Positions 36,401 to 48,400 of a stretch of DNA of 64,000 bases are shown piece after piece. Origin of the DNA: an uncultured Nitrospiraceae bacterium (GTDB lineage Bacteria; Nitrospirota; Thermodesulfovibrionia; Thermodesulfovibrionales; UBA6898). Each line of letters starts with the position of its first letter. The stretch's first letter is position 1. Made by a program: the position numbers. The stretch covers positions 640,001 through 704,000 of the forward strand of contig CAWEQH010000004.1 of NCBI GenBank assembly GCA_963811165.1, written 5' to 3'.

Positions 36401-39400
36401 ACAGGCTCCCTACGGGAAACCTTCATTGGAGCCGAAACAACTTTTTTCTTCGGGGCTTTGGCGGCAACCGCTTCTTTCTTCCCCTTCTTTGAAGGTGCCG
36501 TCTTTGCCTTTTTGGGAGACGCTGTCTTTGCCTTCAGAGTTATCGATTTCTTCCCTGCGGGTTTCGTCTTCGCAGGTTTTGTTTTACTTACGCTTTTTTT
36601 GGTATTGGTGCTCTTGATCTTGGCCATAAAGACTCCTCAATTAGGATTGAATAGATTAGCAGAGGCCCCGGCGAATAGTCAAGAAAAACGCCCTTGAAAA
36701 GGGGATTTGAAAGATACGTTTTTGTTGCCAGCTAAGTGAAGGATGAAGGGGCTTTCCCGGCGCCGAATAGGTAGGAAAGAAGTCAGTCTTCCGCCGGGAG
36801 GTCTCTTTGTGTAATGAGTACGATGCCCTGCCCGGGGGCGAGGTCGTAGATAAAGGGAGCAGGAATATAGTCGAGAGGATTTTCGGGAGATATGTCGATA
36901 AGAGGCGCGCCGGCCTGGAGATATTTCTGAAGGTTCTCGGCATAAAAATGCTGTGCGCGGTAAATGTCTTTGTTGAGGATGAGGAGCGACTCCTCCCGGG
37001 TATGGGTCGAGGCCTTCCACATAAGCAGGACATTGGGGTTTTCGTGATGGAGTATTTCCGTGGGCGCGTCCTCCTGAAATATCACATGCTCAGATTTGAT
37101 CCTGTTTACTTGGCCGATGAAGGGGGTGAGGTCCACTTCGGTGTTCTCCCAGTCGCCGGGTCTTGTCCTGACTACATGGAGCCTTTTTTTGAAGCCGAAT
37201 TCGTAACCCATGGGCATCATGACACCGCCCGAAAAAAGCGCCGAAAAAAGATATCGCTGCTTCAGCCCTTCAACATTTCCGCCCAGCTCCGCAGCGAGTC
37301 TTACGGTATCATGGCTCTCGGGGAAACTGATCGATGGAGCGATATCCCGCGTCAGCGCGTACTGCTTCATGAGCCAGTGCCCGTAAAAATCCCACCATTT
37401 GGAGCTGTTAAAAATATAGTCGAACCCCGCGCTTGCGGTCTTTCTCGTGAGGTCCGGAGGGTTCCCGAGTGTCTCCGCAAAAAACAGTACGCCCGGATAT
37501 GCCTTTTTGGTTTCATTGATGAGTCTTTCCCAAAGGCCCTTGGGCAACTGGTAGGCCGCGTCGCATCTGAACCCCCTGAACCCGAGTTCGGCGAGGAATT
37601 TCACTATCGAAAAGAAATAGTGATAGAGACCTTCTTTGTCCCTTGTGTTTCTGTGGTCGAACTTCGCAAGGTCTTTCCAGACCACTTTTTTCCCGTTTTC
37701 GTCGGCGAAGGGATGGGCGACGCGGCCGTTTGTCTCCCAGAGAAACCATTCCGGGTGGGATTTGAGAAGGGGGGAATCGACTGAGCAATGGTTGATCACA
37801 AGGTCCATCATCAGCGCAAGACCGAGTTTCCCGGCGACTCCCGCAACATCCTGTACCTGCTCTACGGACGACTTTCCCGTTTCATTGTCAATCAGGAGGG
37901 GATTAAAATCGAAATAGTCGGCTATGGAATAGAGACTCCCCGAACTGCCGGGGCGCTGTATGGGGTTGACGAAGATCCAGTTGAAACCCATCTCTGATGC
38001 CCTTGCGAGGTGGCCCCCCCATTCGGTAAATTTTCCGGCAAGAAGAGGAAACAGATTATAGATCACCATCTTTTTCGTGTAAAGGACTTCTTCGGCATCC
38101 GGACATGCCTTCAGGAGCAGCCTCTGGTTTTTTGAGATGACTGAGAGCCAGTAATTCATTCTTTCCGCATTGCCTTTGTCCACCCAGTGACTAAAGAGAT
38201 ATGACGCGTTGCCTAATGAGAGCCTGCCTTCGACCGGGTGTATCTCCAGGGAAAAAGAGACCTTGTCAGCCCCGGGTTTGAGAAGCGCCTCGTTGACGAT
38301 ACGGGAAAGCCCCGACAGACCGAACATCGGTGCAAGAGACCTTTTCCCGTGATATTCGAAGGGGATCGGGATCTCGGTCAGGAAGCTGAGGTGGTCCGAG
38401 ACGCCGAAAGGACTTAAGTCGGAAAGCGGGTGGCCGTCGTGAAGGTGGAAGTGCAGGGGCTTCCCAAGCGGACCGAGCTCCCGGACGACCGAGAGCACTT
38501 TTTCCAGTGCGGAGGCGACCGCGCGTTCAACGTCTTCAATAAGGTCCGGGAGGTTGGGGCTGTCCGGCCTTAGTGAGCAGATGTCTTTACCCGGATGTTT
38601 CCGGGAATATTCGGCCCTCGTCTGCCGGATGCCTATGTGCCCCACGTCTATGCATGCACTGACGAATTCGAGGTCCGCTATCTCTTTAAAGATATTTACG
38701 AAGACCTCCGGGTCGAGACCTGCCGCATATTCGATAAAGAGGAGAGGACCTCCTCCGACTTCTCTCAGTCCGGAATTCAGTTCCCGCAGGGCAGAGAGAT
38801 ATTCCTTCAGAAGCATAGGGACATCATCCCGGTCATGGACCACGAGGCCGTAGACCCTCCCCTTGAAACCCCTTGCGAAATCGATGACCGACTGTCTTGA
38901 CGATCTATCGAATATGTTCATGCCGCGGTCGAGATGCACAACTACCGGCGCATCATGAAAAGGCCGGAAGCCCAGGAGCCATTCGAGCTCCTCTGCGGAT
39001 GCGGCATAATATTCCGCCCCCATCCTGGCTTCCCTGAAGCGCAGTGCCGCAAGCTGAAGCAGGGCGTCGTCGCCGTCTATTCTTTTTTGAAACAATCCAA
39101 GTATTTTGGGACAGGTCCTTATCGCCGGCATTCCACTTGCCTCCTCTGCTGCGGACGTGCCTGGACAAGGAAGATTTTGTTATCGACGACGAGCCCTTCT
39201 ATGTCCAGCGGCAGTCCGAATGAAGTTTCGACGAGGCTGCCTATGCCTCCTATGCGCTTAGATAATTCGGTGCGGAATTTCTTATCCTTTGAAAAGGGAA
39301 TTTTTGAGTAGTCGATGATACTTTGTACGATATCCGCGCGGCGGTCCCGGACAAAGGCAGTGCAGTAACTGGCGAAGGAGAGCATCTGCATATCGCCGGT

Positions 39401-45400: not shown

Positions 45401-48400
45401 CGTCCTTTTTTAAAAAAGGCGTCTGGATCGCCTTAGAGCCGAAGGCGCGGCTGCCCTCGGGCCATGATTGCTTTGCAGGGACTTGCCATGACGCGTTTCC
45501 TCTTTTTCTGACCCCCCAATGAAGGAGAGCGTCGGTATCGGCATCCGCACGGATGGTGATCTCTGTAACAGAGTCCCCGATCTCCTTTTCGACAAACAGC
45601 ACGAGGCCGTTTTCAGTTGTGATTTTATCTTTTTGCATAGTCGGCTGACGACGGACCCTCAAGAGGTCCACGATATTCATTATACCTAATATATGGGGAA
45701 GGGGATATGAGGGGAAATCAGTACGGGGGGGTTGAAAAAGACATGCGGAGGGACTGGGGTAGCATCATATCAAAACAGAATGGCGTTCTTCCAGCTTTTT
45801 CTATAGCTTCAACGATGGCAATGAGGCGCAGGGGCAACAGCCTTTGCAAAAAACCACAGAGGCTATTCCCCGTCGTCTCGATTGGTGTTATACCAACCTT
45901 TATTTCCTTCTTAAATTTAGGTGAGCATGACAGGCGTGCCAAAAAAAAGATGTGAATCAACTTCAAAAAGGATATAGAATCGTCTCCAGAAGTGTGGTAA
46001 GATTTTGGCAAGGTTGAGTCCTTATAATCCATTTTTAAGAGGTGGCGATACATGCCTGAAAAGACGATCGAATCCTTCGGCGTCAAGCGCCTTGAAATCC
46101 TCAGCGAGACCGGGGACGCGGATGCCGCACTTATGCCCCCGCTTTCAGACGCGCAGATTAAGGAGCTTTACGAGCTGCTTGTAATTTCAAGGACCTTTGA
46201 CGGCCGCGCACTGAATCTTCAGAGGGAAGGAAGGCTAGGCACCTATGCGCCTGTTTTTGGGCAGGAGGCCTCTCAGGTAGGCAGCGCCTATGCCTTTGAC
46301 AAGACCGACTGGCTCTTCCCGACGTTCAGGGAGATGGCCGTCTTCATGGCTGTGGGTTATCCGATGCATATGATCTTTCAGTACTGGTCCGGCGACGAAC
46401 GAGGCCTCAGGGTGCCGGACGACCTCAATATCTTTCCCATCTCTATCCCGGTGGGTACACATATACTCCACGCCGTCGGCGCGGCGATGGCTATGAAATA
46501 CAAAGGCGACAAGAAGGCTTCCGGGGTATATTTCGGAGACGGAGGCACGTCTGAGGGCGATTTCCATGAGGGCATGAACTTCGCGGGAGTGTTCAACGCG
46601 CCGGTCGTCTTTATCTGTCAGAACAACCACTGGGCGATATCCGTGCCGAGGGAAAAACAGACGGCAGCGAAAACCCTCGCCCAAAAGGCCGTGGCCTACG
46701 GATTCGAAGGTATTCAGGTCGACGGTAACGATGTCTTTGCCGTGTACAAGGCCACAAAGGATGCTGTGGACAAGGCCAAAAGAGGGGAAGGCCCCACACT
46801 GATAGAATGCGTTACCTACAGGATGGCAGACCATACGACCGCTGATGATGCGTCGAGGTACAGGACGAAAGAAGTGATAGAGGCATGGAAGCCGAAGGAC
46901 CCGATCCTGAGGGTGAAGCTTTTCATGGAGAAGAAGGGCATATGGACGGAGACCGATCAGAAGGAACTTGAGGAGAAGTCGAAGGCCAGGGTCGACGAAT
47001 GGGTGAAGATGGAGGAGGCGATAGAGAAGCCCTCTCCGAAGGACATGTTCCTCTATACCTACGAAAAACCCACCCCGCGACAGATCAAAGAGATGGGGGA
47101 TTTTTGATATGCCGAAAATGAACATGGTCCAGGCGATCAACCTTGCCCTTAAGGAGGAGATGGAGCGCGACAAAAACGTGGTCGTCCTCGGGGAAGACGT
47201 GGGCAGAGACGGAGGCGTTTTCAGAGTGACCGAAGGGCTCCTCGATCTCTACGGCCCCGAGCGCGTAATGGACACGCCCCTGGCCGAATCGGGTATCGTC
47301 GGCACCGCCATAGGCATGGCCGCCTATGGGTTGCGTCCGGTTGCCGAGATCCAATTTATGGGTTTCATATATCCCGCGGTCGATCAGATATTCAATCATG
47401 CCGCGCGAATGCGCTCGCGCTGCCGAGGAAGGTACACCATCCCCCTTGTCGTCAGGACACCTTACGGCGTCGGCATAAAGTCGCCGGAGCACCATTCGGA
47501 AAGTTCAGAGGCGCATTTCTGCCATATGCCGGGGATAAAGGTGGTTGTCCCTGCGACCCCGTATACTGCCAAAGGACTGCTCATCTCTTCGATCAGGGAC
47601 CCGGACCCGGTGGTCTTTCTCGAATCGACCAGGCTTTATAGGATGATAAAGGAAGACGTTCCGGAGGGTGAATATACCATTCCCCTGGGGCAGGCGAGGG
47701 TCGTGCAGGAAGGCAGGCAAGTTACCGTCATCTCCTGGGGGAGTATGCTGCACAGGGCCTTGCAGGCGGTGAGCGCGGTCGATGCCGAGGTGATAGATCT
47801 TATGACCCTTCTGCCTTTTGATGAGGAGACGGTATACAAGTCCGTGAAGAAGACCGGCAGGGTTGTGATTGTGCAGGAGGCCCCGAAGACCGGCGGGTTC
47901 GGCGCCGAGATCTCGGCATCTATTGCGGAAGATGCGATGCTTTATCTTAAAGGACCGATAAAGAGGGTGACCGGCTATGACGTGGTGCTCCCCCTCCCGA
48001 AGCTCGAGGATTATTATATGCCGACGGTAAACAGGATAAGGAAAGAGATCAATGAGGTTTTGAAATATTGAACGGGGCCGGCGGGCATACAAAAAGAAAG
48101 GTTTAATTAAATGGAAAGAAAATGTTATCGCTTTGAGTGGCTTGTGATCGTCATTCTTTTGCTGTTTCCTCTTTTGTCCCATGCCGCGGAAATGCAGGCT
48201 GATGAGAAATCCCCCGAAGCGGCTTCGGATGTTTCGGAACCGCAGCCCGAGCAGAAATCCCCGGAAGCAACTTCGGAATCTGCCGCTCCCGGACCTGCCA
48301 ACGAGGGGATGCAGGAAGAAGAAGGAGGGATTGTCGATCCCTTTGAGCCATGGAACCGCGTTATGTTCACCGTTAATGACAGGCTTTATTTCTGGCTGAT

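What a model noticed while it worked through the whole genome (the two positions that open the first line are those of the whole stretch)
36783..45680. Tandem bacterial orthologues of plant starch dikinases GWD and PWD in a glucan operon
Two adjacent genes encode full-length relatives of the plant starch-phosphorylating enzymes: g01567 is 40% identical over ~1000 residues to alpha-glucan water dikinase GWD1/R1 and g01566 is 38% identical over ~860 residues to phosphoglucan water dikinase PWD/GWD3 (fused to an N-terminal xylose-isomerase-like TIM barrel instead of a CBM), followed by an alpha-amylase-family gene. Boldest reading: this bacterium phosphorylates its own alpha-glucan at C6 then C3 as plants do, implying a semi-crystalline (starch-like) reserve, and the GWD/PWD pair of starch-storing eukaryotes descends from such a bacterial two-gene operon. 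New if true: the glucan phosphorylation machinery said to be unknown in p [...]
Evidence so far: Swiss-Prot table: g01567 vs Citrus/potato/Arabidopsis GWD1 40.6/40.2/39.6% id, 709-690 bits, but 23.5% (136 bits) vs PWD; g01566 vs Arabidopsis/rice PWD 38.3/36.4% id, 570/542 bits, but 25-26% (199 bits) vs GWD; the two genes are only 26% alike to each other (203 bits, call 84), so each is closer to its plant counterpart than to its neighbour. Pfam: Ig_N_CWD1, GWD1_pHisD, PPDK_N; phosphohistidine motifs LSHLSVRAR (g01566) and LSHIAVRAR (g01567) kept. GWD1_pHisD family in at least 286 of 189,784 bacterial species genomes, 75 of 316 in the order, 0 archaea (relatives.tsv, call 75). 80 loci fetched with g01567 come from Nitrospirota, Desulfobacterota, Verrucomicrobiota, Chloroflexota, Planctomy [...]
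(Added by a program. Inside this text positions count along the whole contig: contig position 640,001 is position 1 of the stretch shown here. "Call 12" and the like, gene names such as g00115 and contig names such as C1 are that model's own, and its searches are not shown. The text may have been shortened before it was handed on; [...] marks where a part breaks off. The agent that wrote the report below was given it as the finding of a first reader that could run no searches.)

Follow-up and report, generated by a model that had tools for sequence, protein, structure and literature searches.

The report
Bacterial starch-type glucan phosphorylation operon
This bacterium carries true counterparts of both plant enzymes that phosphorylate starch, each paired with its own metal-binding barrel enzyme that may take the phosphate off again, so some bacteria probably run a plant-like phosphate on/off cycle on their stored sugar, which has not been tested at the bench.

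Summary
Observation confirmed, and there is more. Three overlapping genes encode five modules: GWD, barrel A, PWD, barrel B, GH13 amylase. The kinases are real GWD and PWD orthologues: each shares subtype-specific active-site residues and motif order with its eukaryotic counterpart, and a bacterial duplication is rejected (AU p≤0.001). In 256 genomes of the order, barrel B occurs in 28 of 31 PWD genomes, 0 of 34 GWD-only and 0 of 191 kinase-less; barrel A in 59 of 65 kinase genomes, 2 of 191 others. Best reading: reversible C6/C3 phosphorylation of storage glucan, with two non-laforin metal phosphatases (inferred, about 0.55) and a maltose-releasing amylase. Two first-reader claims stay unproven: a starch-like reserve (the genome has an ordinary glycogen set) and bacterial origin (best trees nest bacterial GWD among eukaryotes but put bacteria deepest in PWD; AU tests exclude neither). 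Bacterial GWD homologues are mentioned in print (PMC6260743, a figure legend); I found no paper on the operon. This scan found the system before on other DNA.

The parts
42579..45680 (-). GWD-type alpha-glucan, water dikinase gene (likely start 45638, 1019 aa)
   Evidence: Pfam; 9HA9 match; E549/E550/R553 and H641 spaced as potato E900/E901/R904 and H992; GWD clade in trees
45279..45632 (-). single CBM45-type (Ig_N_CWD1) starch-binding module, residues 17-134
   Evidence: PF23166 E 1.7e-22
43956..45245 (-). GWD helical central (glucan-acceptor) domain, residues 146-575
   Evidence: phmmer to 9HA9/9QVI E 1.8e-90
39119..42622 (-). barrel A fused to PWD-type phosphoglucan, water dikinase (likely start 42586, 1155 aa); start overlaps the GWD stop
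41768..42586 (-). barrel A: AP_endonuc_2 TIM barrel with H87, H121, E152, D185, H188, H216, D225, H227, E261; candidate glucan phosphatase paired with GWD
   Evidence: all nine invariant in 73 of 73; same columns as the genome's endonuclease IV; co-occurrence
39122..41740 (-). PWD core: central domain, phosphohistidine domain (H770), ATP-binding domain
   Evidence: PWD clade in trees
36783..39131 (-). barrel B fused to a GH13 glucanase; start overlaps the PWD stop, SD GAGGAGG
38091..39131 (-). barrel B: xylose-isomerase-like TIM barrel missed by Pfam, with H66, H99, E134, D162, H165, H229, D232, H234, D246, H247, E296; candidate glucan phosphatase paired with PWD
   Evidence: AF2 pLDDT 92.7; Z about 19 to this superfamily; hhalign to barrel A 96%; conservation; co-occurrence
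36786..38081 (-). GH13 catalytic domain, triad D524/E553/D608, plus H448 and D487 matching the non-reducing-end site of maltose-releasing GH13_48 amylases
   Evidence: invariant in 41 of 41; best PDB matches 3DHU and 4GKL, then GlgE; PMC11239784 section 11

Best explanation
A cytoplasmic system for reversible phosphorylation and breakdown of the cell's own storage alpha-glucan, working like the plant GWD/PWD/SEX4/LSF2/beta-amylase cycle but with unrelated phosphatases. GWD binds the glucan by its CBM45, autophosphorylates H641 from ATP and phosphorylates glucosyl C6. PWD (H770) then phosphorylates C3 of the primed glucan. The phosphates loosen packed chains. The GH13 enzyme cuts maltose from non-reducing ends and stalls at phosphates. 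The two endonuclease-IV-like metal barrels hydrolyse the phosphate esters: barrel A goes with GWD (C6), barrel B with PWD (C3). Shown: sequences, domains, conserved residues, fold of barrel B, gene order, co-occurrence, orthology. Inferred: kinase activity on alpha-glucan (about 0.9), C6/C3 as in plants (about 0.7), barrels as phosphatases (about 0.55), their C6/C3 split (about 0.4), exo action of the GH13 (about 0.6).
For: Subtype marks cross the bacteria/eukaryote line: E550 is E in 12 of 12 bacterial and 28 of 29 eukaryotic GWD rows but A/G/S in 52 of 52 eukaryote-type PWD rows and at least 34 of 36 bacterial PWD rows; D637 is D in GWD (12 of 12, 28 of 29) and P in PWD (31 of 36, 49 of 52). 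E549/E550/R553 are the residues proposed to assist transfer in potato GWD1 (PMC13553574 section 14). Gene order in 80 genome loci: barrel B directly after PWD in 58 of 60 with room, barrel A before PWD in 46 of 50, GWD within 4.5 kb upstream in 39 of 50, GH13 within 2.8 kb downstream in 34 of 50. Order-wide: barrel B in 28 of 31 PWD genomes, 0 of 34 GWD-only, 0 of 191 without kinase; barrel A in 29 of 34 GWD-only, 30 of 31 PWD, 2 of 191 without. Barrel A stays even when unlinked from GWD. Its profile's PDB list is MJ1311 then 8 endonuclease IV sequences of 12 rows; NCBIfam gives a weak hit to the phosphodiesterase CbiR (bioRxiv 10.1101/2020.09.02.280537). Neighbours include glycogen synthase (21 loci), GH57 branching enzyme (15) and glucan phosphorylase (5). 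Neither barrel profile hits any of 172 eukaryote-type dikinases.
Against: No activity was measured. The fold search does not single out phosphoesterases: IolE, epimerases and an AP endonuclease tie at Z about 19, and the superfamily holds many sugar isomerases. Barrel A's best PDB match, MJ1311, is an uncharacterised protein. Endonuclease IV and CbiR are mainly phosphodiesterases, while a glucan phosphate is a monoester. Barrel B has D246-H247 adjacent where barrel A has D-x-H, so its site is not an exact copy. 5 of 34 GWD-only genomes lack barrel A, 3 of 31 PWD genomes lack barrel B (one cut by a contig end), and 2 genomes hold barrel A without a dikinase match. Related genomes are not independent, and barrel B's co-occurrence may partly reflect operon linkage. 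The genome also has one small dual-specificity phosphatase (181 aa) that I did not test. In this genome no other glycogen gene flanks the operon.
Confidence: 0.55

Rival explanations
1. The kinases work as proposed, but the barrels do something other than hydrolyse glucan-bound phosphate: they bind phosphoglucan through their metals and target the fused enzyme, act only on released phospho-maltose or glucose phosphates, or do sugar chemistry (epimerase, C6-to-C3 phosphate shift).
For: Barrel A sits where eukaryote-type PWDs carry CBM20 (23 of 28 tested). Fold neighbours are mostly sugar isomerases, epimerases and dehydratases. Fusing a phosphatase to a kinase risks a futile cycle.
Against: Both barrels are often free-standing genes and barrel A persists without PWD. 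Full conservation of a nine-residue endonuclease-IV-type site is more than binding needs. That the one- and two-metal epimerases lack several of these residues is recalled, not tested here.
Confidence: 0.3
2. One reading: the host stores a semi-crystalline, starch-like glucan, and the dikinases exist to open its crystallites.
For: In eukaryotes GWD tracks semi-crystalline glucan closely (bioRxiv 10.64898/2026.09.25.754361, passages); the same paper lists some Verrucomicrobia among starch-like accumulators. The genome has GlgX and two glycogen synthases.
Against: The gene set is that of ordinary bacterial glycogen, with a GH13 branching enzyme and a GH57 branching-enzyme relative. Plant GWD raises phosphate on E. 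coli glycogen five-fold, so crystallinity is not needed. Phosphorylation could instead keep glycogen soluble or clear aberrant long-chained deposits.
Confidence: 0.3
3. Evolution, bacteria first: GWD and PWD arose by tandem duplication of a kinase-plus-barrel unit in bacteria, and the pair passed to an early starch-storing eukaryote, which replaced the barrels with laforin-type phosphatases.
For: The order GWD-A-PWD-B looks like a duplicated two-gene unit. One transfer of adjacent genes is simpler than two transfers plus operon assembly (inference). Barrel-fused PWDs form the deepest PWD branch in the best trees (support for the rest 85 and 93). Carriers span at least seven phylum-level groups by record title. 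Eukaryotic GWD monophyly (p 0.63) and nesting within bacterial GWD (p 0.20-0.25) are not rejected.
Against: Bacterial GWDs form one shallow clade (SH-aLRT 99) that the best trees join to green-lineage GWD1 (88-89), inside eukaryotic diversity. Monophyly of bacterial PWD is not rejected (p 0.19).
Confidence: 0.4
4. Evolution, eukaryote first or mixed: bacteria took GWD (and perhaps PWD) from an alga, then spread the operon sideways, as PMC6260743 suggests for its bacterial GWDs.
For: GWD topology above. Very patchy range: 19 of 301 in the own phylum, 1 of 301 in Verrucomicrobiota, the centre genome itself. Published legend.
Against: PWD topology points the other way; no relevant node reaches 95. 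The genes show no foreign base composition (GC3 0.61-0.64 against a genome median of 0.62), so any transfer is old.
Confidence: 0.35

Closest known systems
Alpha-glucan, water dikinase GWD1/R1/SEX1 (EC 2.7.9.4; potato StGWD1, PDB 9HA9/9QVI)
   Same: CBM45, helical central domain, His domain, ATP domain in the same order; E-E-x-x-R and catalytic His at the same 92-residue spacing; relocated RS-D..ED..AG motif; about 40% identity
   Different: one CBM45 instead of two, no transit peptide, bacterial operon, partnered with a metal barrel
Phosphoglucan, water dikinase PWD/GWD3 (EC 2.7.9.5)
   Same: core 33-40% identical to CBM20-bearing PWD representatives; E-[AGS]-x-x-R and P-x-LSH marks; PEP-synthase-like motif position
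   Different: an endonuclease-IV-like barrel replaces CBM20; no carbohydrate-binding module detected
Plant reversible starch phosphorylation cycle (GWD, PWD, SEX4, LSF2, beta-amylase); SEX4/LSF2/beta-amylase roles recalled
   Same: two kinases, two candidate phosphatases and a candidate maltose-releasing exo-enzyme
   Different: candidate phosphatases are metal TIM barrels, not Cys-based dual-specificity phosphatases; the glucanase is GH13, and no GH14 was found in the 95%-complete genome
Endonuclease IV (Nfo) and CbiR phosphodiesterase, AP_endonuc_2 superfamily (PF01261)
   Same: fold; nine conserved His/Asp/Glu columns in barrel A
   Different: far below the family cut-offs; the genome has its own Nfo; glucan-gene context; predicted monoester substrate
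GH13_48 maltose-releasing amylases (Thermotoga neapolitana AmyB 4GKL, Lactiplantibacillus 3DHU) and GlgE (GH13_3)
   Same: catalytic triad, Cys before the nucleophile, His and Asp of the non-reducing-end site
   Different: only distant similarity (E about 1e-23), GlgE scores nearly as well (E 4e-21); subfamily not assigned

Membership tests
GWD (EC 2.7.9.4) | CBM45 + central helical domain + phosphohistidine domain + C-terminal ATP domain | tested here: met
GWD (EC 2.7.9.4) | catalytic His and E900/E901/R904 equivalents | tested here: met
   H641, E549, E550, R553
GWD (EC 2.7.9.4) | branches with eukaryotic GWDs, apart from PWDs | tested here: met
   support 99-100; bacterial duplication rejected
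GWD (EC 2.7.9.4) | transfers the beta-phosphate of ATP to C6 of alpha-glucan | not testable with these tools
   needs an assay
PWD (EC 2.7.9.5) | branches with CBM20-bearing PWDs and shares their active-site marks | tested here: met
   the comparison set is unnamed and classed as eukaryotic by CBM20 and tree position
PWD (EC 2.7.9.5) | N-terminal CBM20 | tested here: not met
   AP_endonuc_2 barrel instead; hence filed as a PWD-type orthologue and variant
PWD (EC 2.7.9.5) | C3 phosphorylation that needs prior C6 phosphate | not testable with these tools
   indirect only: PWD without GWD in 1 of 31 genomes, a fragmented one
Endonuclease IV (TIGR00587) | nine metal-site residues (E. coli numbering recalled; H109, D179, H182 counted from and E145 aligned) | tested here: met
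   barrel A, nine of nine columns against the genome's Nfo
Endonuclease IV (TIGR00587) | score above the family cut-off | tested here: not met
   no Nfo model hit for either protein; not a member
AP_endonuc_2 / xylose-isomerase-like barrel (barrel B) | fold with acidic and His residues at strand C-termini | tested here: met
   Pfam itself gives no hit
Glucan phosphatases laforin/SEX4/LSF2 | dual-specificity phosphatase domain | tested here: not met
   no DSPc domain in the three proteins; the barrels could only work like them
GH13_48 maltose-releasing amylase | Asp135/His103 non-reducing-end site and Cys before the nucleophile | tested here: met
   D487, H448, C523, 41 of 41
GH13_48 maltose-releasing amylase | falls inside the subfamily by profile or tree | tested here: inconclusive
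   best PDB matches are GH13_48, GlgE is within 8 bits

The most novel reading that the evidence does not exclude
Bacteria run a complete C6/C3 glucan phosphorylation cycle with a new class of metal-dependent TIM-barrel glucan phosphatases, one per kinase. The GWD/PWD pair arose in bacteria by duplication of a kinase-plus-phosphatase unit and was handed to the ancestor of starch-storing eukaryotes, so the step thought to have been invented for starch is a bacterial import, and some uncultured anaerobes may store starch-like granules.
Probability: 0.22. Interest if true: 0.92.

Novelty: new variant of a known kind. Interest (0 to 1): 0.72.

Why it matters
[quoted passage not shown] This operon supplies the machinery and makes the question testable with five expressible modules. 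If the barrels are phosphatases, they are a second, unrelated solution to the job of laforin and SEX4. Compact bacterial GWD and PWD would also be useful for structures and for enzymatic starch modification. The origin of the eukaryotic pair becomes an open phylogenetic question.

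Tried and rejected
Recent bacterial duplication of one dikinase: rejected (963 lnL units worse). 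PEP synthase or rifampin phosphotransferase identity: only the ATP domain matches, far below cut-offs. Single-sequence fold of barrel A was poor (pLDDT 46.7) and not used. PDB profile search with barrel B found only two chance galectin rows. The careful IQ-TREE search did not finish in two runs; I used shorter searches, whose likelihoods varied by tens of units between seeds, so AU p-values are rough and the marginal rejection of 'all four groups monophyletic' (p 0.03-0.04) is not relied on. In one search three wrong ORFs (L127-L129) entered the tree; I dropped them and rebuilt. L134, L138, L139 were first taken for bacteria but branch with a green-algal GWD and were relabelled. Unnamed tips could not be named, so several 'bacterial' and all 'eukaryotic PWD' labels rest on domain content and tree position. 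A metagenome scan with the odd protein P0508 found no close relative (best full-length-type match 35%). Replicating the co-occurrence in Verrucomicrobiota failed for lack of carriers (1 of 301). No RNA holder was listed. No complex prediction was available. Promoter scan: 4 sites against 6.1 expected. Two paper searches for endonuclease IV ligand numbers found nothing usable (one search listed two papers, not read).

Full report
Observation. Three minus-strand ORFs fill 36783-45680. Each start overlaps the previous stop, so they are most likely one translationally coupled operon, diverging from a pyruvate-dehydrogenase E1 gene and followed by dksA. The first protein has CBM45, phosphohistidine and ATP-binding domains and matches the potato GWD1 central-domain crystal at E 1.8e-90. 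The second has an AP_endonuc_2 barrel, then the same His and ATP domains, and does not match that crystal. The two share 26.2% identity. Against stored proteins, the first scores 733 bits to Catharanthus GWD and 144-170 bits to six CBM20-bearing PWD representatives; the second scores 450-605 bits to those and 117-195 bits to seven eukaryote-labelled GWDs. The host is by inference a Thermodesulfovibrionales (Nitrospirota) bacterium: the closest loci carry such titles at 65-72%. GC3 of the genes (0.61-0.64) equals the median of 685 long ORFs (0.62).

Orthology. A tree of 202 rows splits into a GWD clade and a PWD clade, each at 100 and each holding bacterial and eukaryote-type rows. A 67-row, 790-column set gives the same split under LG+F+G4 and LG+C20. 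Forcing bacterial GWD and PWD together costs 963 log-likelihood units (AU p 9e-47 and 0.001 in two runs). Two character sets agree. First, the RS..ED..AG motif of the ATP domain lies after the W-x-S-x-W motif in GWDs (38 of 50 bacterial rows, 93 of 115 long eukaryotic rows, 15 of 20 representatives; the rest undetermined except P0508) and before it, as in PEP synthase, in PWDs (60 of 67 and 79 of 112; the rest undetermined). Second, active-site marks: E550 and D637 are GWD-specific, [AGS] and P are PWD-specific, on both sides of the bacteria/eukaryote line. E549/E550/R553 sit 92 residues before H641, as potato E900/E901/R904 do before H992, where they are proposed to assist transfer (PMC13553574; I saw 12 of 26 passages and section 14; 'bacteri' does not occur in its main text). 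Caveat: the 52 'eukaryotic PWD' rows are unnamed; 23 of 28 tested carry CBM20.

Residues 1-347 of the third protein have no Pfam hit. Folded with 49 sequences they give a confident model (pLDDT 92.7) of a xylose-isomerase-like barrel (Z 19.2, rmsd 3.2, 250 aligned for the top row, with many ties), related to barrel A by profile (96%). The system is therefore GWD, barrel A, PWD, barrel B, GH13. Of 114 confirmed genome matches the best 80 were kept. Among those with enough flank, barrel B follows PWD directly in 58 of 60, barrel A precedes PWD in 46 of 50, GWD lies within 4.5 kb upstream in 39 of 50 and the GH13 within 2.8 kb downstream in 34 of 50. Fusions vary: A-PWD, PWD-B, A-PWD-B, B-GH13, all separate, and A-GH13 in a GWD-only genome. 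Recurrent neighbours, among the 80 loci plus 34 others, are glycogen synthase (21 loci), GH57 branching enzyme (15) and phosphorylase (5); the largest neighbour cluster, sensor kinases (25), is a large generic family.

The barrels. Nine His/Asp/Glu residues of barrel A are invariant in 73 of 73 sequences and fall in the same columns as nine residues of the genome's own endonuclease IV. That these nine are the three-metal site of endonuclease IV is recalled; H109, D179 and H182 can be counted from the E. coli alignment, and PDB titles name H69A and E261Q mutants. The profile's 12 PDB rows are MJ1311, eight endonuclease IV sequences, UlaE, TTHB071 and one chance row. CbiR, a phosphodiesterase of this superfamily, gives a weak hit; the superfamily also holds isomerases and epimerases (bioRxiv 10.1101/2020.09.02.280537, 10 passages). 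Barrel B keeps H66, H99, E134, H165, H229, D232, H234, D246, H247, E296 in 63 of 63 and D162 in 62 of 63, mostly at strand ends in the model.

Co-occurrence. In 256 genomes of the order, 65 have a dikinase. I class 31 as PWD carriers and 34 as GWD-only. Types were checked by sequence for 26 genomes including this one and inferred for the rest from match count, score and position. Barrel B is in 28 of 31, 0 of 34 and 0 of 191 kinase-less genomes. Barrel A is in 30 of 31, 29 of 34 and 2 of 191. In GWD-only genomes barrel A is often on another contig or far from GWD, so linkage alone does not explain it. An overlapping phylum-wide sample of 301 gave 19, 18 (17 shared) and 6. Kin are not independent, so I give no p-value. 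The pattern says barrel A belongs to GWD's chemistry and barrel B to PWD's. With a phosphoesterase-type site, removal of the C6 and C3 phosphates is the simplest reading. It is an inference.

The GH13. The triad D524/E553/D608 is invariant in 41 of 41. The nearest structures are 3DHU and 4GKL, then GlgE. H448 and D487 align with His103 and Asp135 of 4GKL, the non-reducing-end site of these maltose-releasing enzymes (PMC11239784, 11 passages and section 11). It would fill the place of beta-amylase; no GH14 was found in the 95%-complete genome.

Starch or glycogen. The genome has GlgC, two GlgA, GlgB, GlgX, TreY/TreZ, a GH57 branching-enzyme relative below cut-off and phosphorylases. Nothing there demands crystallinity. 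In eukaryotes GWD tracks semi-crystalline glucan (bioRxiv 10.64898/2026.09.25.754361; 12 of 13 passages plus 4), but plant GWD also phosphorylates E. coli glycogen (PMC13666283; 12 of 30 passages). I put a starch-like reserve at about 0.3.

Direction of transfer. AU tests reject none of: eukaryotic GWD monophyly (0.63), eukaryotic PWD monophyly (0.24), bacterial PWD monophyly (0.19), both eukaryotic groups monophyletic (0.23), eukaryotic GWD nested in bacteria (0.25, 0.20). Searches were short, support is SH-aLRT only, 6 of 13 'bacterial' GWD tips are unnamed, and long eukaryotic GWDs were sampled only above 1513 aa. The question is open.

Known or new. [quoted passage not shown] 9 legend; 4 passages; the figure was not seen, and the one supplement held had no hit). 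JGI labels many relatives GWD or PWD. Five searches listed no paper on a bacterial GWD-PWD operon, the barrels or any bacterial activity; the library lacks most subscription journals, and the preprint's supplementary tree could not be seen. This scan's own notes describe the same system on other DNA, including the phosphatase idea; my note of that idea predates the look-up, and those notes are not counted as support.

Verdict. A real, conserved, intact system: a new variant of the GWD/PWD cycle with bacteria-specific partners that are good candidates for a new class of glucan phosphatase. Interest 0.72.

Noticed in passing
P0508 (1106 aa, unnamed); related metagenome locus L126:606-1892: CBM45 and GWD-type E-E-x-x-R site but the PWD/PEP-synthase motif position; deepest, long branch of the GWD side. 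A possible intermediate form or a chimera; origin unknown.
   Followed up: partly
P0485 (2496 aa, unnamed): A giant protein with a signal-peptide-like start and two tandem dikinase-like modules.
   Followed up: no
L166 (G280) and L181 (G702): Barrel A next to the GH13 in two genomes with no dikinase match (100% and 96% complete); in G702 only a 121-codon GH13 piece was seen.
   Followed up: partly
L164/L165 (G188), L178/L179 (G630): Two GWD-type genes and no PWD in one genus; G188 and three other genomes of that family lack barrel A.
   Followed up: partly
P0305, P0310, P0314-P0333 (several), P0290: Dinoflagellate-type GWDs fused to a GH13 domain, echoing the bacterial GWD-GH13 linkage; a Volvox model joins GWD to a DSPc domain, perhaps a gene-calling error.
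   Followed up: no
window 38091-39131 (Atlas look-alikes): Two unnamed clusters like barrel B (178 and 157 members) list Actinomycetota as commonest phylum; their context was not examined.
   Followed up: no
L037:2-3065: A 3-kb contig titled 'archaeon' carries PWD and the start of barrel B at about 51%; probably mis-binned.
   Followed up: no
G000:C4:606300-607073 (L019): Another AP_endonuc_2 protein with a below-cut-off CbiR hit, 33 kb before the window.
   Followed up: partly
G000:C10:133026-134288 and G000:C1:90526-91901: A GH57 match with an internal TAA and a phosphorylase match split over two frames: broken genes or assembly errors.
   Followed up: no
window 46052-54312: E1 alpha/beta genes are separated from the E2-like gene (53035) by an Mla-type lipid-transport cluster and a TraB-like gene; only E1 alpha was scanned, the other names are recalled from sequence.
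   Followed up: no
window 38083-38055 (-): An 11-of-12 sigma-70-like site at the barrel B/GH13 junction; total sites are at chance level.
   Followed up: no
L127-L139: Metagenome contigs with mostly single-ORF GWD genes; three branch with a green-algal second GWD type and one lies beside an MGDG synthase, so they are probably algal.
   Followed up: partly
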